Source: a virus. From it: a DNA stretch of 64,000 nucleotides. The notes under the pieces are model-generated. The model saw only the letters and a list, made by a program, of their open reading frames with translations. It was not told the DNA's origin and ran no database searches. The position numbers and the translations under genes were made by a program. Below, piece by piece: positions 4,024-53,189 of this stretch (positions within the stretch are counted from its first letter, which is position 1; each line of letters opens with the position of its first letter). The stretch covers positions 96,001 to 160,000 of IMG/VR virus record IMGVR_UViG_3300028840_006907; one strand, given 5' to 3'.

Positions 4024-4653
4024 TTATTTTTTCTTGAGTCGCTTATGAAAAGTATAAGCTTGAGCTGTTTGAAGTAAAAGAGTTAACCAGTTTTCTTCAA
4101 ATTCTGTTATTAGATAAGGGAATTTTTTGACATCTTTATCTAATTTTGCCCACTTCCAATTAATTGGATCATCGTTACTACTAACCCATATATCTCCATT
4201 GTGCTGATTAATATAAGCTACCCAAAGTTCATTTCTTTCATTAGTATAAGAGTGAAAACAGAATCCTGTTATAAACGGCCCATCGGGAAGTTTGAATGGA
4301 TCTTGGTATTCTTCGAAAAATTGTTTTGATGTTTTTAATCCTGTTTTAATACATCCTGGAATAATTATTTTTTCTATGACATTTTTTTCTGACATTTCTT
4401 CGTTCAATTTTAAAGTAAATTTTGTACTACCTGAGTGCCTTTTCTTCATTTCTTCTTCTGATAATTGTTTAACAATACCGTAATCTTTAAAAGAGGATAG
4501 GTTGAAGGAAGCCCCAATATTCTTTTTACTTTTATTATTAAAAGTAGCTTTTTTTGTCAATCCAGTAATATCTGATATTACATACCCTATGTAAGTTAAA
4601 TTTTCTTTACGCCTAATTTCTAAACCATTTTCTAATAGCTGTGTGTCTTTCAA
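4024..4653 (-). CDS. hypothetical protein
   Basis: 209 aa ORF followed by terminator. Confidence 0.5.
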   Translation of the reverse strand: MKDTQLLENGLEIRRKENLTYIGYVISDITGLTKKATFNNKSKKNIGASFNLSSFKDYGIVKQLSEEEMKKRHSGSTKFTLKLNEEMSEKNVIEKIIIPGCIKTGLKTSKQFFEEYQDPFKLPDGPFITGFCFHSYTNERNELWVAYINQHNGDIWVSSNDDPINWKWAKLDKDVKKFPYLITEFEENWLTLLLQTAQAYTFHKRLKKK

Positions 4654-5193
4654 AACATCTCCTTTGATTTATTATATGGATTTAAGATTTCTATATAATT
4701 AGAAATATATGAAAAATATAAGGAAAAATCAAGAAAAATTTAAGATATCGTGAAAAAGTCGTGAGAACTATTTAAGTATAAAAATCGGAAGTACATAGAT
4801 AGGGATGAATTATATTATTAATCGACACTTTTTTAAAATGATGAAGCCCTTTTGAGGGTAGTCGCACGGGATATCTGTGATTATGAAAATTATCATAGGT
4901 ATCCCATTTTATTGTATTATATGTAGCTGATTATCTATTTCCCAATTATCCTCATCTTTAATAATATCTTCTGGCCATCTGGCTGCAGGAGAAAATTCAT
5001 TATTTTGCCAAATTATAAATTTTTTCATAGCTTCTGATTTGTCTTTTGCTAATACAAGATATTGGTGGCATCCACATCCTTCAGCAAGGAATGTATAATA
5101 GTTCACTTAAAAGAGCCTTTTTAATATGTAGGAATTTAAATTGGAGGATCCGCATTATGACGCAGATCCTCCAACAATGAAAGGAACTTAATA

Positions 5194-9189: not shown

Positions 9190-9441
9190 TTAACATTTGG
9201 GTGGTTGGTTATAACTGGACACATTTGCAAGAGAACCAAATGCACTTTTAACTCCTTTAAAAGTTGATGTGATTATATTGTCTATTGTTGAAATAGTAAC
9301 TTTACATATAGTTACTATCCCTGTAACAATCACCCACAATGAAAATCCTGCCGTAACTAGAGTGAAACAACAAACAATTGTTTCTTGCACGTTGAGCCCA
9401 TCATTAATTAATTCCACTATTGCTTGCATTAATTCATTCAT
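9190..9441 (-). CDS. small membrane protein
   Basis: 83 aa with hydrophobic segments. Confidence 0.4.
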   Translation of the reverse strand: MNELMQAIVELINDGLNVQETIVCCFTLVTAGFSLWVIVTGIVTICKVTISTIDNIITSTFKGVKSAFGSLANVSSYNQPPKC

Positions 9442-15797: not shown

Positions 15798-15872
15798 AAG
15801 TGGTATACACAACTTAAAGAGCGGTCCTTCATGTTAACGTAGGTAATTTTCTCTGTAAGTTGTTGATTTATA

Positions 15873-16282
15873 TGGAGGTGAGGAGAGTTGAACTCCTGTC
15901 CGCGAAGGTATCTTGAGTAAACCTCTACATGTTTAGTCTATGGTTTAAATCTTATTCATAATCACGTTCACAGACAAACTTAATTAAGAACCAGTCTCTA
16001 GTCTCATTCATTGGTCAAGACTCCTCAATGAACCAGAACCCGTTTGGCTATCCGGAATTAACAGGGTTCAGTTAAAACCGGATTTGTCGTTTTTTGTTTA
16101 AACGACGGCTTCTTCTGCTTGATGAATAGCAGCAAGGTTAAGTGCTGAAAACATCGCACAGAAGTTAACTGTATTAGTTTTTTCAGTTATTATTGAAATC
16201 GGCTTTTTTACGAGGCCAACCGATTAACCTCGACATGCAGTTTACATTTCAACTCATCACGTCGAAAACCAAGTACACCCCC
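15873..16282 (-). ncRNA. ssrA: tmRNA (transfer-messenger RNA, ssrA-like)
   Basis: Minus strand 5' GGGGGTGTACTTGGTTTTCGACG..., internal GGTTGGCCTCGTAAAAAAGCCG matching conserved tmRNA pseudoknot/resume region, 3' tRNA-like GGAGTTCAACTCTCCTCACCTCCA. Confidence 0.8.
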
Positions 16283-26989: not shown

Positions 26990-27796
26990 ATGATAAAGTT
27001 AATTTATGCTACTGACCTTCATGGGGATCCTCGTAAGTATCGAGCTGTTCTGGAATTCGCTCTGAAACATGATATAAAGTTAATTCATCTCGGTGCTGAT
27101 ATATTACCGAAAGGTACCAATCTGTTAAAGATACAGAAAAGGTTCGTTAAGAATTACTTAAAAGATTTTCATACTGAGTGCGACTCTTATGGTATCAAAA
27201 TTTTAAGTTTCTTTGGCAATGACGATATCTATACTCGTAAGAAGTATTTTCGGGAATATGGTGAATTGCTCGATGAGAATCCATGTACAATAGAAGGCTA
27301 TGAATTTAAAGCTTACCCCTATGTCTTGGATTATCCCTTTGGTATAAAATCCGCTTGTAAACTGGATTATCCTGGGTGGAAATGTCCCGATCTTTATTTA
27401 ACCAATCCATGTGAGTTTAATGAAAAAGGTTATTATCTCATTGAAGATATAAATGATTACTTTCTGCAGAAGGGTACTGTGGAAGATGATCTTAAAGAGA
27501 TCCATGCCGATGATAAAACTATCATGGCGATGCATATGCCTCCGCAGGGACTCGGTATGGATGTCTGTTACGGGAACAGGCGTGTAGGTTCCAAGTCAGT
27601 CCTGGACTGGATCTATCGGGAACAACCCTTGTTATTTCTGTCAGGTCATATTCATGAAAGTCCTGAGATAACGGGTATTTGGAAGACTATGGTAGGTGAC
27701 ACAGTGGTTATTCAGCCCGGACAAAAAACCGATAAAACCACAATGGTTTATATCGAAATAGATGGTAATAAAGTTGATGCTCAATTAATAGGATAA
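26990..27796 (+). CDS. calcineurin-like metallophosphoesterase
   Basis: 268 aa; DLHGD, GNDD, GHIHE motifs. Confidence 0.65.
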   Translation: MIKLIYATDLHGDPRKYRAVLEFALKHDIKLIHLGADILPKGTNLLKIQKRFVKNYLKDFHTECDSYGIKILSFFGNDDIYTRKKYFREYGELLDENPCTIEGYEFKAYPYVLDYPFGIKSACKLDYPGWKCPDLYLTNPCEFNEKGYYLIEDINDYFLQKGTVEDDLKEIHADDKTIMAMHMPPQGLGMDVCYGNRRVGSKSVLDWIYREQPLLFLSGHIHESPEITGIWKTMVGDTVVIQPGQKTDKTTMVYIEIDGNKVDAQLIG

Positions 27797-28965: not shown

Positions 28966-29187
28966 GTGTTCTGGGTTTTACAAAACAATCTTTTTAATGA
29001 AGTAGGGTTTCAGTCTTTGGTAGGAACTCTGGAAAGGATGAATATAAAACATATCATTGTGAAAGTGGTTCCTTTTGTAGGAGATATAATTCCTGACATA
29101 AACCCGAAGAACCCTGTCATAGCAGTGGGAGCCTATTCCATGTGGAAGGTTGCCAAAAGAAAAGATGGCACCCAGGTGTCTTTGTGA
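28966..29187 (+). CDS. ATP-grasp protein, N-terminal fragment (frame differs from downstream part)
   Basis: 73 aa ORF overlapping 29142-29732 in another frame. Confidence 0.4.
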   Translation: MFWVLQNNLFNEVGFQSLVGTLERMNIKHIIVKVVPFVGDIIPDINPKNPVIAVGAYSMWKVAKRKDGTQVSL

Positions 29188-29732
29188 ATGAGAATTTTAC
29201 GTATCCGAAATTGATAAAACATTATGGAGACAATCTCTTAAATAAAGAATGCAATATAACTACACTTGAGAATGTTCTCCCGAAATATAACGAATTTTTT
29301 ATAAAACCTTGTAAGGATAGTAAAGTTTTCTCAGGACAAAGGATGACCTGGGTAGAATTTAAAGAGTGGAGAGAAAGAATCTTAGAACTCGGATGGGAGG
29401 GTTCAGTAAAGGGAAGTACCTGTGTAGTACAGGCACCTGTAAAAGAAATCTACCGGGAGTACCGGTTCTTTATAGTGAATGGTAAAGTTGTCACAGGTTC
29501 GCAATACAGAGTAGGAATGCGGGTATTTTCAACGGAATGTCATGAAAAGGATGTAATTGAATATGCTCAACGAATGGTTGATCTCTGGAGTCCGGATGTA
29601 GGTTTTGTCATTGACATAGCACTAACTCCTGAAGGATTCAAAGTTATCGAGATAAACTGTTTAAATGCTTCAGGCTTTTATGCCTGTGATATGAGTAAAG
29701 TAGTTTTTGCATTGGAGAAAATTTATAATTAA
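29142..29732 (+). CDS. ATP-grasp domain protein (C-terminal part)
   Basis: 196 aa; EYRFFIVNGKVV...VIDIALT...KVIEINCLNASGFY. Confidence 0.55.
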   Translation: MEGCQKKRWHPGVFVNENFTYPKLIKHYGDNLLNKECNITTLENVLPKYNEFFIKPCKDSKVFSGQRMTWVEFKEWRERILELGWEGSVKGSTCVVQAPVKEIYREYRFFIVNGKVVTGSQYRVGMRVFSTECHEKDVIEYAQRMVDLWSPDVGFVIDIALTPEGFKVIEINCLNASGFYACDMSKVVFALEKIYN

Positions 29733-30767: not shown

Positions 30768-30845
30768 GGCCGAGTGGTGAAGTTGTTTTAACACGGTAGT
30801 CTGCAAAACTATTATGCGTCGGTTAGAATCCGACCTCGGCCTCCA
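30768..30845 (+). tRNA. tRNA-Cys (anticodon GCA)
   Basis: Hand fold: acceptor GGCCGAG/CTCGGCC, loop CTGCAAA, CCA. Confidence 0.75.
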
Positions 30846-31068
30846 GTTCTTTGAAATAAATAAGTATATCGAGTCCACGCGCAGATGTTAAGTCTGTGAG
30901 GAAGCTCAGGACATCACCGCTGACGGAAGGAGACGTAAGTCGTAGGTACTTCCTAGGATGCAACACAAACAGACCTATGCCGGTGAGCGGGGCTATGATG
31001 GTCGGGTTAGTGGCAAAGATAAATGTGGACATAAAACAGAATCCTGGCTACGGATATACTTATTATAC

Positions 31069-31175
31069 GGAGAGGTAGGTTTAATTGGTAAAATCAGTGC
31101 TTTGCACAGCACCTAAGCTAGCAAGGTGCCATTCCAGGGATGGATTTCGGGGTTCAAGTCCCCGTCTCTCTGCCA
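31069..31175 (+). other. atypical 107-nt tRNA-like element (canonical acceptor, D-arm and T-arm; aberrant anticodon region)
   Basis: GGAGAGG/TCTCTCT acceptor pairing, D-arm GGTTTAATTGGTAAAATC, T-arm CGGGGTTCAAGTCCCCG, CCA; middle holds GTGCTTTGCAC hairpin and GCTAGC palindrome. Confidence 0.35.
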
Positions 31176-31186
31176 ATAAATTATAC

Positions 31187-31275
31187 GGAGGTAGACCGGC
31201 TGGACGAGGAGCCTGTCTTGAAAACAGGTAGGGCTGTAAAAGGTCTTCGGGGTTCAAGTCCTCGTGCCTCCGCCA
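31187..31275 (+). tRNA. tRNA-Ser (anticodon TGA), type II
   Basis: Hand fold: acceptor GGAGGTA/TGCCTCC, loop CTTGAAA, CCA. Confidence 0.8.
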
Positions 31276-31351
31276 TAAAAACAATAGTTATCAAAAGGTA
31301 ACTATAAGTTCTTTGACATTTCGGTTATTATGAAGTAAGCACATATTTATA

Positions 31352-31459: not shown

Positions 31460-31549
31460 GAGTAGGAGGTCAGATAGTGGTTGGCTGCACCGGACTGTAA
31501 ATCCGGATCTCGTAAAGGGACGCTGGGGGTTCGACGCCCTCCCTACTCA
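31460..31549 (+). tRNA. tRNA-Tyr (anticodon GTA), type II
   Basis: Hand fold: acceptor GAGTAGG/CCTACTC, loop CTGTAAA, long variable arm. Confidence 0.8.
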
Positions 31550-31563
31550 TTTGTCAATTTTAT

Positions 31564-31649
31564 GGAGAGCAACCGAATGGTTAGGAGGCGGTTTCGAAAA
31601 CCGTTAAGGCTGAAAGGCTAACTAAGTTCGATTCTTAGGCTCTCCGCCA
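31564..31649 (+). tRNA. tRNA-Ser (anticodon CGA), type II
   Basis: Hand fold: acceptor GGAGAGC/GCTCTCC, loop TTCGAAA, CCA. Confidence 0.8.
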
Positions 31650-32066
31650 TTAACAAACAGATTTTAAAAAAGATGATGCTACTCTTTTAATTGCTTCTTT
31701 ATCGGCGTTTTCCATTTGATTAACAATTTTTTTGGCCCAGGTATATCCAGAATCACCTCCCCAAACAAGCCATGCTACATAACCTTTATCTTTCCATGGT
31801 TCATTTTTATATTCTGGGTTTATCTTTTTATTCTTTTGATGACGGTCGAAGAAAGCTTTCATTCTTTTGACTGTTTTGGGAGATAAAATATCTCTGTTTT
31901 TAAGATTAACAGCTCTTTGAACACCAGACCCAACACCTTCTGCTTTTGCCTGTTCAACTGTTAGTCCTCCTTTACCACCGGCCATTCTTCTATATCTTAA
32001 ACCTTTTTCAGCTTCTTTGGCTACTGATTCAGGAGGTTTAAAATTGATATGTTCATATTTTTTCAT
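31650..32066 (-). CDS. hypothetical protein
   Basis: 138 aa ORF, Gly-rich GGKGGLT and WLVWGGDSGY motifs. Confidence 0.5.
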   Translation of the reverse strand: MKKYEHINFKPPESVAKEAEKGLRYRRMAGGKGGLTVEQAKAEGVGSGVQRAVNLKNRDILSPKTVKRMKAFFDRHQKNKKINPEYKNEPWKDKGYVAWLVWGGDSGYTWAKKIVNQMENADKEAIKRVASSFLKSVC

Positions 32067-51360: not shown

Positions 51361-51632
51361 TGGAGTGTAGCTCAGTGGCAGAGCGGGTGGCTGTCTTGGT
51401 TGGCAGCTCTTATAGGAAACTGTAAGATGAAAACTCGGTGAATTCAGGGAAACCTAAGTCTTAAACAGATATGGCAATCCTGAGCGAAGCCTTGAGAAAG
51501 GAACGTGCAGAGACTTATAGCGCCGAGCACCTAAGGTGAAAACTATGGTGATGAGATAGTCCAGGCCCTTGGGAAATCAGGGGAATTACTGTAACCACTT
51601 GGTCGGGGGTTCAAATCCCTCCACTCCAGCCA
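51361..51632 (+). tRNA. tRNA-Asn (anticodon GTT) interrupted by a group I intron
   Basis: Exon 1 51361-51394 (TGGAGTG...GGTGG-CTGT), exon 2 51592-51632 (TAA-CCACT...CACTCCAGCCA); spliced loop CTGTTAA; U1:A72 as in bacterial tRNA-Asn. Confidence 0.7.
51395..51591 (+). ncRNA. group I intron (~197 nt) in tRNA-Asn anticodon loop
   Basis: 5' exon ends in U; IGS GGCAG pairs with exon CUGU; R-like GCAGAGACTTATAGCG and S-like GAGATAGTCC elements; terminal G before exon 2. Confidence 0.65.
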
Positions 51633-53115: not shown

Positions 53116-53189
53116 GCGCCTGAGGCTCTGAGGTGAGCAACTTGGACTCTAAATCCAAGTTTTTCAGGGTTCGACTCCCTACAGGCGCA
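53116..53189 (+). tRNA. suppressor tRNA (anticodon CTA, reads UAG)
   Basis: Hand fold: acceptor GCGCCTG/CAGGCGC, anticodon stem TTGGA/TCCAA, loop CTCTAAA (U33, CUA, A37), T-loop TTCGACT. Confidence 0.65.

What the first reader, a model, noticed from the sequence alone, without database searches (positions are those of the whole stretch)
31069..31175. Atypical 107-nt tRNA-like element inside the tRNA array
Good acceptor pairing (GGAGAGG/TCTCTCT), canonical D-arm, T-arm and CCA, but the middle holds a tight GTGC-TTT-GCAC hairpin and a GCACC...GGTGC stem enclosing AAGCUAGCA (contains CUA). It may be an insertion-containing or degenerate tRNA, or a second suppressor-like species.
Basis: seen in the sequence. 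Interest (0 to 1): 0.5.

Follow-up and report, generated by a model that had tools for sequence, protein, structure and literature searches.

The report
Displaced serine tRNA with broken anticodon arm
This 107-base element in a huge phage's tRNA array is a real serine-tRNA copy whose anticodon arm was disrupted by two insertions after a replacement serine tRNA landed next to it, so it is most likely a leftover that can no longer read codons.

Summary
Window 31069-31175 has a perfect 7-bp acceptor stem, D arm, T arm, long variable arm, G73 and CCA. The middle holds a GTGC-TTT-GCAC hairpin and a GCACC/GGTGC stem around an oversized loop.

It belongs to the tRNA-Ser family of this phage group. 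Compared with the tRNA-Ser(GCU) genes of related phage contigs, it has 12 extra bases between the D arm and the anticodon stem. Its anticodon loop is 11 nt (9 if U-A closes it) instead of 7. No 5-bp stem with a 7-nt loop can be drawn.

It sits exactly where relatives carry a normal tRNA-Ser(UGA), with the same 3' flank (TAAATTA). A different, intact tRNA-Ser(UGA) lies 11 nt downstream, and the window has a full serine set.

No second copy with these features turned up in IMG/VR, JGI metagenomes, GTDB genomes or about 1.7 Mb of related huge-phage loci.

Best reading (0.55): a redundant, degenerate serine tRNA that is still transcribed and processed but no longer decodes. The suppressor idea is not supported. 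A retained non-decoding role cannot be excluded.

The more notable find is next door: a conserved 206-nt miniature RNase P-like RNA at 30861-31066.

The parts
31069..31175 (+). The whole 107-nt tRNA-Ser-derived element.
   Evidence: Rfam tRNA model 30.1 bits. Model R1 cross-hits tRNA-Ser genes at 44-47 bits. Sequence.
31069..31075 (+). Acceptor stem, 5' strand GGAGAGG.
   Evidence: Pairs with 31165-31171. Identical to the tRNA-Ser(GCU) of L094.
31078..31095 (+). D arm: GGTT(T) / loop AATTGGTA / (A)AATC. It has one more U-A pair than L004's tRNA-Ser(GCU).
   Evidence: Alignment A1, sequences.
31097..31108 (+). 12-nt insertion GTGCTTTGCACA, absent from every related tRNA-Ser. It forms the GTGC-TTT-GCAC hairpin. 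Positions 31101-31107 read UUUGCAC, the same as a tRNA-Ala(UGC) anticodon loop.
   Evidence: Model alignment shows a 12-nt block with no counterpart in the relatives. Alignment A1. Ala-loop comparison.
31109..31129 (+). Anticodon stem inherited from tRNA-Ser: GCACC(U)/(A)GGTGC. It encloses an oversized loop, 11 nt TAAGCTAGCAA, or 9 nt AAGCUAGCA containing the palindrome GCUAGC.
   Evidence: Relatives have GCATC-CTGCTAA-GGTGC at the same place.
31130..31147 (+). Long (class II) variable arm of 18 nt, against 15 nt in relatives.
31148..31164 (+). T arm CGGGG-TTCAAGT-CCCCG.
   Evidence: The stem is identical to the tRNA-Ser(GCU) of L094.
31165..31175 (+). Acceptor 3' strand TCTCTCT, discriminator G, encoded CCA.
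31177..31183 (+). 3' flank TAAATTA, the same as the 3' flank of the normal tRNA-Ser(UGA) at this position in L003 and L005.
31187..31275 (+). Intact tRNA-Ser(UGA) of a different sequence type (the L004 type), 11 nt downstream. This is the presumed functional replacement.
30861..31066 (+). Context: a miniature RNase P-like RNA that ends 2 nt before the element. Cleavage at the element's 5' end would also trim this RNA's 3' end.
   Evidence: Rfam RF00010 48.8 bits, E 2.9e-14. Conserved with compensatory changes in relatives.

Best explanation
The element is a serine tRNA gene that became redundant and has lost its decoding arm.

How it arose (inferred from comparison with relatives):
- In related phages, the slot after tRNA-Cys and the RNase P-like RNA holds a normal tRNA-Ser(UGA) of the group's common sequence type.
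- In this phage, a second tRNA-Ser(UGA) of another sequence type lies 11 nt downstream. A different tRNA-Ser(GCU) sits further upstream.
- With selection on decoding gone, the old copy picked up a 12-nt insertion between position 26 and the anticodon stem. Its anticodon loop also expanded from 7 to 11 nt.

What it probably does now (inferred, not shown):
- It lies inside the tRNA transcription unit and keeps an intact acceptor stem, D arm, T arm, variable arm, G73 and CCA.
- It is therefore probably still transcribed, cut at its 5' end by RNase P, and possibly still charged by seryl-tRNA synthetase, which does not read the anticodon (established knowledge).
- It cannot present a normal anticodon on the ribosome.
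- Its only likely residual effect is as a processing signal. Cleavage at its 5' end would also trim the 3' end of the upstream RNase P-like RNA.
For: Descent from tRNA-Ser:
- Over the first 29 nt, 89.7% identity to the tRNA-Ser(GCU) of L004 by BLAST; the separate 28-nt global alignment gives 25 matches in 29 columns.
- The 3' strand of the anticodon stem plus the next base, GGTGCC, is identical to L003 and L004.
- Acceptor and T stems are identical to the tRNA-Ser(GCU) of L094, apart from C72 to U.
- Model R1 aligns relatives end to end, with a 12-nt block and 4 loop nt missing in them.

No canonical anticodon arm:
- Read directly from the sequence, no 5-bp stem with a 7-nt loop exists.
- ARAGORN with default settings fails to call it.

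Position:
- Gene order is Cys, RNase P-like RNA, [this slot], His, Tyr, Ser(CGA), Ser(GGA), shared with L003 and L005.
- The element's 3' flank TAAATTA equals the 3' flank of the normal tRNA-Ser(UGA) in L003 and L005.
- In the window, the other-type tRNA-Ser(UGA) plus 30 nt sits between that flank and the conserved AAGTTCTTTGACATTT motif.
- L004 has only the new type in this slot.

Redundancy:
- The window holds tRNA-Ser GCU, UGA, CGA and GGA besides the element.

No conservation of the odd features:
- Absent from the syntenic arrays of L003/L007, L004, L005 and L093; L094 ends inside this slot and L095/L096 carry no comparable array, so those three say little.
- Absent from 1.62 Mb of huge-phage loci.
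- Absent from IMG/VR patterns, a JGI metagenome pattern and GTDB genomes.

Co-transcription:
- No terminator-like site lies between tRNA-Cys and tRNA-Ser(UGA).
Against: - Every canonical helix is still perfectly paired, and all tertiary-contact bases are intact.
- All differences from relatives are insertions (+1 bp in the D stem, +12, +4, +3), and each adds or extends a helix. Neutral decay in phages is usually biased towards deletion and should also produce stem mismatches.
- The 12-nt insert is a neat self-contained hairpin. The enlarged loop carries a centred 6-nt palindrome.
- The sequence says GCU type while the position says UGA type, so the exact ancestor is uncertain.
- Only one genotype is available: all assemblies are identical. 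Neither constraint nor decay can be measured.
- Expression was not tested.
Confidence: 0.55

Rival explanations
1. It is a retained, non-decoding tRNA-like RNA. The tRNA shell (acceptor, D, T and variable arms) is kept so that it is processed, stabilised and perhaps serylated. The rebuilt middle does another job: a decoy for tRNA-targeting host defence nucleases, a protein-binding or dimerising module through the GCUAGC loop palindrome, or simply an RNase P cleavage signal that defines the 3' end of the upstream RNase P-like RNA.
For: - All canonical stems and tertiary bases are intact, and every change is a helix-adding insertion.
- Two well-formed alternative folds of nearly equal energy exist, -34.5 and -35.0 kcal/mol.
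- The 9-nt loop AA-GCUAGC-A has the layout of a kissing-loop dimerisation site (recalled from HIV-1 DIS, my knowledge, not tested).
- It starts 2 nt after the RNase P-like RNA.
- There is precedent for pseudo-tRNAs recruited to other roles: B. cereus tRNA-Other (PMC3399842).
Against: - No second example anywhere that was searched.
- Closest relatives manage without it. In L004 the normal tRNA-Ser(UGA) follows the RNase P-like RNA directly.
- The loop complement has no excess of targets in the window: 8 matches found against 10.1 expected.
- A 6-nt palindrome can arise from a simple 4-nt tandem duplication around GCUA.
Confidence: 0.25
2. It is a working serine-inserting tRNA with an expanded anticodon loop. 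It would read an unusual codon: amber (CUA), or a four- or five-base codon for programmed frameshifting.
For: - The serine scaffold is the one synthetase system that ignores the anticodon. Engineered Ser-tRNAs with 8-10-nt loops decode 4-5-base codons (my knowledge: Anderson, Magliery and Schultz 2002).
- The loop contains CUA, GCU and UAG.
- The phage already carries a suppressor tRNA.
Against: - No U precedes any of CUA, GCU or UAG. The one triplet that has a U before it (AGC) cannot be closed into a 7-nt loop.
- The extra hairpin at the 26/27 hinge would turn the tRNA core into a five-way junction.
- A canonical CUA suppressor already exists.
- No TAG-recoding signal in the window.
- No conservation.
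Confidence: 0.07
3. The inserted segment makes a new anticodon arm of tRNA-Ala(UGC) type: GUGC / UUUGCAC(A) / GCAC. The element would then be the array's missing alanine-codon reader, or a serine-charged mistranslator of GCA.
For: - Element positions 33-39 read UUUGCAC, the canonical tRNA-Ala(UGC) loop (my knowledge of E. coli tRNA-Ala).
- A huge-phage tRNA-Ala-like gene in L054 has GGTGC-TTTGCAA-GCAC.
- Alanine is the only amino acid with no tRNA found in the window or in the 10 kb downstream.
Against: - The acceptor stem has A3-U70, not the G3.U70 that defines alanine identity.
- The arm has only 4 bp with an 8-nt loop, or 5 bp with a 6-nt loop.
- This fold is about 6 kcal/mol worse than the alternatives, -28.9 against -34.5 and -35.0.
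- It would leave a 35-nt 'variable region'.
- The 5' half is clearly Ser-type.
- More than 400 kb of the genome was not examined for a tRNA-Ala.
Confidence: 0.04
4. It is an intron-containing tRNA that is spliced to a normal tRNA.
For:
- Other huge-phage arrays contain tRNA-like genes with 30-60-nt inserts in the anticodon region.
- The window has a genuine group I intron in a tRNA at 51385-51583.
Against: - The proposed spliced product has a G.A mismatch in the stem, C at position 37, a 23-nt variable region that pairs poorly, and G73 (tRNA-Cys has U73).
- That fold is the least stable, -27.2 kcal/mol.
- It contradicts the homology of GCACC/GGTGC with the serine anticodon stem.
- 11-12 nt is far too short for self-splicing.
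- Restoring a serine tRNA would need two separate excisions.
- No RNA ligase or splicing endonuclease was found among the 27 ORFs of the window that were scanned.
Confidence: 0.04

Closest known systems
Class II bacterial or phage tRNA-Ser. Nearest sequences: tRNA-Ser(GCU) of related phage contigs L004 2025-2110, L003 3449-3534 and L094 2010-2095.
   Same: 7-bp acceptor stem with G2-C71, G73 and an encoded CCA. D arm with G18G19, T arm, long variable arm, and the anticodon-stem 3' strand GGTGC.
   Different: 12-nt hairpin inserted between position 26 and the anticodon stem. Anticodon loop of 11 (or 9) nt instead of 7, with no U33 context. D stem 1 bp longer, variable arm 3 nt longer, and a G1.U72 wobble pair.
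Pseudo-tRNAs and tRNA-like relics, for example Bacillus cereus tRNA-Other (PMC3399842), and the 'pseudo' tRNA calls common in large phage genomes.
   Same: A tRNA-derived gene that keeps a tRNA-like shape but is not expected to work in translation.
   Different: tRNA-Other is part of a longer regulatory transcript and has experimental phenotypes. Here nothing is known about expression or effect, and the defect is two clean insertions rather than scattered changes.
Frameshift-suppressor and engineered expanded-loop tRNAs: sufD/sufJ-type 8-nt loops, and Ser-tRNA libraries with 8-10-nt loops (my knowledge).
   Same: Serine scaffold and an enlarged anticodon loop.
   Different: Those keep U33 and a purine at 37 around the extended anticodon, and have an otherwise normal cloverleaf. 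This element lacks that context and has an extra hairpin.
mascRNA at the MALAT1 3' end (Rfam RF01684), a tRNA-like RNase P processing signal.
   Same: A tRNA-like structure without a normal anticodon arm, placed directly after another non-coding RNA, so that RNase P cleavage makes that RNA's 3' end. There is a weak Rfam match of 20.6 bits, E 0.08.
   Different: mascRNA is eukaryotic and unrelated in sequence. The match covers only the acceptor and T arms and is far below the gathering score of 42.5. Relatives show that an ordinary tRNA can do the same job here.
Known non-canonical natural tRNAs: tRNA-Sec, allo-tRNA, tRNA-Pyl and mitochondrial tRNAs (review PMC7609411).
   Same: Long variable arm and G73 as in the Ser/Sec lineage. 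A possible 6-bp anticodon stem.
   Different: None of these has a hairpin between the D and anticodon arms or a 9-11-nt anticodon loop. The element has a normal 7/5 acceptor/T geometry, not 8/5, 8/4 or 9/3, and no UCA anticodon.

Membership tests
tRNA (Rfam RF00005) | 7-bp acceptor stem, discriminator base, 3' CCA | tested here: met
   GGAGAGG/TCTCTCT with two G.U pairs, then G and CCA.
tRNA (Rfam RF00005) | D and T arms with the conserved tertiary bases (U8, A14, G18G19, U54U55C56, A58, G53-C61) | tested here: met
   Read from the sequence and from the Rfam alignment.
tRNA (Rfam RF00005) | 5-bp anticodon stem closing a 7-nt loop with U33 and a purine at 37 | tested here: not met
   No such stem-loop can be drawn in 31096-31130. 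The options are a loop of 3, 6, 8, 9 or 11 nt. ARAGORN with default settings makes no call.
tRNA (Rfam RF00005) | Score at or above the curated gathering threshold | tested here: met
   30.1 bits against 29, a marginal pass. Related normal tRNA-Ser genes score 50-55 bits.
Class II tRNA-Ser | Long variable arm, G73 and G2-C71 (the SerRS identity set; established knowledge) | tested here: met
   18-nt variable arm with a 4-5-bp stem, G73 and G2-C71.
Class II tRNA-Ser | A serine anticodon presented in a normal loop | tested here: not met
   GCU is present, but inside TAAGCUAGCAA and preceded by A.
Class II tRNA-Ser | Charging by seryl-tRNA synthetase | not testable with these tools
   Needs an aminoacylation assay.
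Amber suppressor tRNA | CUA at positions 34-36 of a 7-nt loop, after U33 | tested here: not met
   The loop reads AAG-CUA-GCA, with G before CUA. The real suppressor at 53116-53189 has CU-CUA-AA.
Intron-containing tRNA (group I, or protein-spliced at 37/38) | A recognisable intron whose removal leaves a canonical tRNA | tested here: not met
   No intron family matches in 30840-31200. The 11-nt 'intron' model from ARAGORN -i leaves a mismatched stem, C37 and a poor variable arm, and is the least stable fold.
tRNA-Ala | G3.U70 wobble pair in the acceptor stem | tested here: not met
   Positions 3:70 are A-U.
tRNA-Sec / allo-tRNA | 8/5, 9/4, 8/4 or 9/3 acceptor/T-stem geometry; a long D stem with a 4-nt loop; a UCA anticodon for Sec | tested here: not met
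   The geometry is 7/5, the D loop is 8 nt and there is no UCA anticodon. A true Sec-like tRNA exists in relative L003 at 4982-5080.
Conserved structured RNA family (any) | Homologues that keep the unusual helices through compensatory changes | tested here: not met
   No homologue with the extra hairpin or enlarged loop was found in any collection searched.

The most novel reading that the evidence does not exclude
The element is not a relic but a purpose-built tRNA mimic. It would be a serine-chargeable tRNA shell whose decoding arm has been replaced by a five-way junction, with an extra hairpin and a 9-nt loop carrying the palindrome GCUAGC. The phage would keep it for a non-decoding job, such as soaking up a tRNA-targeting defence nuclease, binding a partner, or dimerising. 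Less likely, it would read a non-triplet or reassigned codon.
Probability: 0.2. Interest if true: 0.6.

Novelty: new member of a known kind. Interest (0 to 1): 0.27.

Why it matters
Taken alone, this is an annotation point. It should not be counted as a suppressor or as an extra decoding tRNA.

It does show a step in how phage tRNA arrays turn over. A new tRNA-Ser(UGA) sits beside the old one, the old one is disabled, and a relative (L004) shows the end state in which only the new gene remains.

If the minority reading is right, a charged tRNA mimic kept for a non-decoding role, it would add to the current interest in phage tRNAs as counter-defence tools.

The neighbouring miniature RNase P-like RNA, conserved in at least five related phage contigs, deserves its own study. 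So do the insert-bearing tRNA-like genes seen in other huge-phage arrays.

Tried and rejected
Homologue searches that found nothing with the element's unusual features:
- Six DNA patterns from the element in IMG/VR, five exact and one degenerate.
- One stem-anchored pattern in JGI metagenomes. The single hit was a chance match inside GC-rich coding DNA.
- Two patterns in GTDB genomes. The exact one found nothing; the degenerate one gave 55 chance hits, and the model found only ordinary tRNAs among them.
- Covariance model R1 over 1.62 Mb of huge-phage loci and over the closest relatives.
- blastn against cultured phages: two short tRNA hits only.
- A 17-nt pattern from the RNase P-like RNA in IMG/VR. 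It returned L007, which duplicates L003, plus six loci without tRNAs that look like chance hits.

Routes to closer relatives that led nowhere:
- The gene at 26990-27796 has no relatives in IMG/VR.
- ORF 31650-32066 is a widespread small protein found in unrelated contexts. The one 99%-identical contig stops 44 nt short of the useful region.
- The look-up for ORF 1243-1881 found no record.

Interpretations rejected:
- Suppressor tRNA: wrong loop context.
- tRNA-Cys with an 11-nt intron, as called by ARAGORN -i: poor exon product and least stable fold.
- tRNA-Ala: no G3.U70.
- tRNA-Sec or allo-tRNA: wrong stem geometry.
- YrlA/Y-RNA-like: in those RNAs the ends close the anticodon-side stem, whereas here they are at the acceptor stem with CCA (my knowledge).
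- Antisense regulator acting through the loop: no excess of complementary sites.
- Assembly artefact: independent assemblies are identical.

Uninformative tests:
- The TAG-recoding test on window ORFs gave no signal.
- The promoter and terminator scan showed no terminator inside the unit and little else.

Full report
**Setting**

The window is part of a 469,617-bp contig, NCBI GCA_016840655.1 JAEORW010000001.1. It has 34% G+C. ARAGORN finds 34 tRNA genes and a tmRNA. Rfam adds a group I intron. The scanned ORFs include homing-endonuclease-type and auxiliary metabolic genes. This is a huge phage-like genome with no close relative among cultured phages. Independent assemblies of the same genotype are identical over 12 kb and 11 kb.

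**Observation**

- A 7-bp acceptor stem, GGAGAGG/TCTCTCT, with G1.U72 and G7.U66 wobble pairs.
- U8, and a D arm with A14 and G18G19.
- A T arm, CGGGG-UUCAAGU-CCCCG.
- G73 and an encoded CCA.
- In the middle, a GUGC-UUU-GCAC hairpin and a GCACC/GGUGC stem.

The stem encloses 11 nt (UAAGCUAGCAA), or 9 nt if the flanking U-A pair forms.

The Rfam tRNA model matches end to end at 30.1 bits, just above its threshold of 29. ARAGORN with default settings does not call it. Thermodynamic stability alone is not remarkable, z = -1.72.

**What it descends from**

I reached related tRNA arrays through homologues of the R2K ATP-grasp gene, which lies inside the array at 29142-29732. Their tRNA-Ser genes align with the element over its whole length.
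- The first 28 nt match the tRNA-Ser(GCU) of L004 at 25 of 29 aligned columns.
- The anticodon-stem 3' strand plus the next base (GGTGCC) is identical to L003 and L004. Their arm is GCATC-CTGCTAA-GGTGC; the element has GCACC-TAAGCTAGCAA-GGTGC.
- The acceptor and T stems equal those of the tRNA-Ser(GCU) of L094, except C72 to U.

Relative to these genes the element differs as follows:
- a 12-nt block (GTGCTTTGCACA) between position 26 and the anticodon stem;
- 4 extra nt in the anticodon loop;
- one extra U-A pair in the D stem;
- 3 extra nt in the variable arm.

The last two are ordinary tRNA variation. The first two destroy the decoding arm. No 5-bp stem with a 7-nt loop can be drawn anywhere in the middle.

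**Folds**

With the tRNA shell fixed, two folds of the middle are nearly equal in energy.
- Fold A, -34.5 kcal/mol: the extra hairpin plus the inherited serine stem.
- Fold B, -35.0 kcal/mol: one long arm pairing 29-37 with 53-61, capped by a small hairpin.
- An arm resembling tRNA-Ala(UGC), GUGC/UUUGCACA/GCAC: -28.9 kcal/mol.
- ARAGORN's model of tRNA-Cys with an 11-nt intron: -27.2 kcal/mol. It also leaves a G.A mismatch, C37 and a poorly paired variable region.

Without homologues there is no covariation to choose between folds A and B.

**Position and redundancy**

ARAGORN missed a tRNA-Tyr (31460-31549) and a tRNA-Ser(CGA) (31564-31649), which Rfam and inspection recover. With these added, the local order is Cys, RNase P-like RNA, element, Ser(UGA), His, Tyr, Ser(CGA), Ser(GGA). 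L003 and L005 show the same order, except that:
- they have a normal tRNA-Ser(UGA) of the group's common sequence type where the element sits;
- they have an HNH gene between the RNase P-like RNA and that tRNA.

The 3' flank of that normal gene, TAAATTA followed by (A)AGTTCTTTGACATTT, is also the element's 3' flank. In the window, a tRNA-Ser(UGA) of a different sequence type plus 30 nt is lodged between the two motifs. L004 has only this second type in the slot.

The element is therefore the positional counterpart of the old serine gene, and its functional replacement lies 11 nt downstream. The window holds GCU, UGA, CGA and GGA serine tRNAs besides the element.

**Conservation**

The unusual features were found nowhere else.
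- The closest syntenic arrays that cover this slot (L003/L007, L004, L005, L093) lack them.
- 1.62 Mb of huge-phage loci fetched through the ATP-grasp gene gave nothing.
- Six IMG/VR patterns gave nothing.
- A JGI metagenome pattern gave one chance hit.
- GTDB genomes gave nothing.

All these searches depend on some sequence conservation, so distant analogues could be missed.

**Most likely explanation (0.55)**

The element is a displaced, redundant serine tRNA that lost decoding through two insertions. Homology, position, redundancy and absence elsewhere are shown. The rest is inferred:
- It is still co-transcribed. No terminator-like site lies within the unit.
- It is still cut by RNase P, because the shell is intact.
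- It may still be charged by SerRS, which ignores the anticodon (established knowledge).
- Cleavage at its 5' end would also trim the RNase P-like RNA that ends 2 nt upstream. In L004 an ordinary tRNA does the same job.

**What argues against simple decay**

Every stem is intact. All changes are insertions that add or extend helices. The insert is a tidy hairpin, and the loop carries a centred palindrome (GCUAGC) flanked AA...A. I therefore keep a 0.25 rival: a retained tRNA mimic acting as decoy, binding module, dimer or processing signal. B. cereus tRNA-Other is the precedent for recruited pseudo-tRNAs. The loop's complement has no excess of targets in the window.

**Suppressor and other decoding ideas**

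- The CUA is preceded by G in a 9-11-nt loop.
- A canonical CUA suppressor exists at 53116-53189.
- Window ORFs give no TAG-recoding signal.
- A 4- or 5-base-codon reader on a serine scaffold is conceivable, but the loop lacks the U33 context and the extra hairpin sits at the hinge of the L shape.

One coincidence is worth recording. The insert reproduces UUUGCAC, the tRNA-Ala(UGC) loop, and alanine is the only amino acid without a tRNA in the window or in the 10 kb downstream. However, the acceptor stem has A3-U70 rather than G3.U70, and that fold is about 6 kcal/mol less stable.

**Comparison with known kinds**

The review of non-canonical natural tRNAs (PMC7609411) describes no natural tRNA with a hairpin between the D and anticodon arms or with a 9-11-nt loop; its word search for 'frameshift' found nothing. 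As an object the anatomy is therefore unusual. As a kind it falls under pseudo-tRNA or tRNA-like relic, hence 'new member of a known kind'. Interest is low to moderate.

**Beyond the finding**

- The 206-nt RNA directly upstream (30861-31066) matches bacterial RNase P RNA across the whole model with the specificity domain missing.
- That RNA is conserved in five related contigs, and 19 of 56 predicted pairs show compensatory changes.
- The searches of the held open-access paper library turned up no report of a phage-encoded RNase P RNA.
- Several other huge-phage arrays hold 110-135-nt tRNA-like genes with 30-60-nt inserts in the anticodon region.
- Both look more interesting than the element itself.

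Noticed in passing
window 30861-31066 (+); also L003 3778-4091, L004 2421-2623, L005 8336-8572, L094 2205-2442, L007 7109-7422: A miniature RNase P-like RNA of about 206 nt in the window sits between tRNA-Cys and the element. It matches Rfam RNaseP_bact_a over the full model (48.8 bits, E 2.9e-14; 59 bits in L005), but the specificity domain is missing. The core motifs GAGGAAGCUCAGG, AGAUAAAUG and ACAGAAUCCUGGCUA and a GGU-containing loop are conserved. 19 of 56 predicted pairs show compensatory changes among 4 sequences. It is absent from L093. The searches of the held paper library found no report of a phage-encoded RNase P RNA.
   Followed up: partly
L047/L049/L051/L053 5986-6109; L061 2273-2385 and 9284-9404; L036 8098-8219; L056 17250-17376; L083 18348-18476; L027 9219-9347; L028 6970-7103; L073/L076/L079/L080/L082/L084 around 9190-9330: Other huge-phage tRNA arrays contain 110-135-nt tRNA-like genes with normal acceptor, D and T arms (often with CCA) and 30-60 extra nt in the anticodon-arm region. 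Some inserts carry a second T-arm-like hairpin. Some are conserved between different phages. ARAGORN with introns allowed flags 30 of 560 calls across the related loci and the window. These inserts are too short for group I introns.
   Followed up: partly
window 31460-31549 and 31564-31649 (+): Two tRNA genes that ARAGORN missed. One is a tRNA-Tyr(GUA) with A73 and no encoded CCA. The other is a tRNA-Ser(CGA) with CCA. Both sit where relatives have Tyr and Ser(CGA).
   Followed up: partly
window 51361-51632 (+): A probable tRNA-Asn(GUU) interrupted in its anticodon loop by a group I intron (Rfam 92.8 bits at 51385-51583). ARAGORN did not call it.
   Followed up: partly
window 53116-53189 (+): A canonical amber-suppressor tRNA with loop CU-CUA-AA, discriminator A and no CCA. 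ORF statistics in the window show no clear TAG recoding; the late genes lie outside the window.
   Followed up: partly
whole window plus L167 1-10000: After adding the missed genes, 19 of the 20 amino acids have a tRNA in the window. Only alanine has none, and none lies in the 10 kb downstream. The element's insert contains the tRNA-Ala(UGC) loop sequence UUUGCAC.
   Followed up: partly
L003 4982-5080 and L007 8313-8411: A related phage carries a tRNA-Sec-like gene with a UCA anticodon (64 bits to Rfam tRNA-Sec) between Tyr and Ser(CGA). The window phage has none at that place.
   Followed up: no
window 30846-30860 and 31297-31315; L003 around 4618-4640; L005; L004; L093: A conserved motif, GTTCTTTGA(A/C)AT..., precedes both the RNase P-like RNA and tRNA-His in all relatives. 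It may be a phage promoter that splits the array into transcription units.
   Followed up: no
window 29142-29732 (+): An R2K-type ATP-grasp gene is embedded in the tRNA array. Homologues occur in at least 93 IMG/VR huge-phage stretches, and several of the fetched loci also carry tRNA genes.
   Followed up: partly
window 31650-32066 (-): A 138-aa ORF with no Pfam match has 317 homologues at up to 84% identity (plus one 99%-identical copy) in unrelated genomic contexts. That suggests a mobile or frequently exchanged small gene inside the array.
   Followed up: partly
window 15870-16282 (-): A phage-encoded tmRNA (Rfam 159.9 bits). ARAGORN predicts an unusually long tag peptide for it.
   Followed up: no
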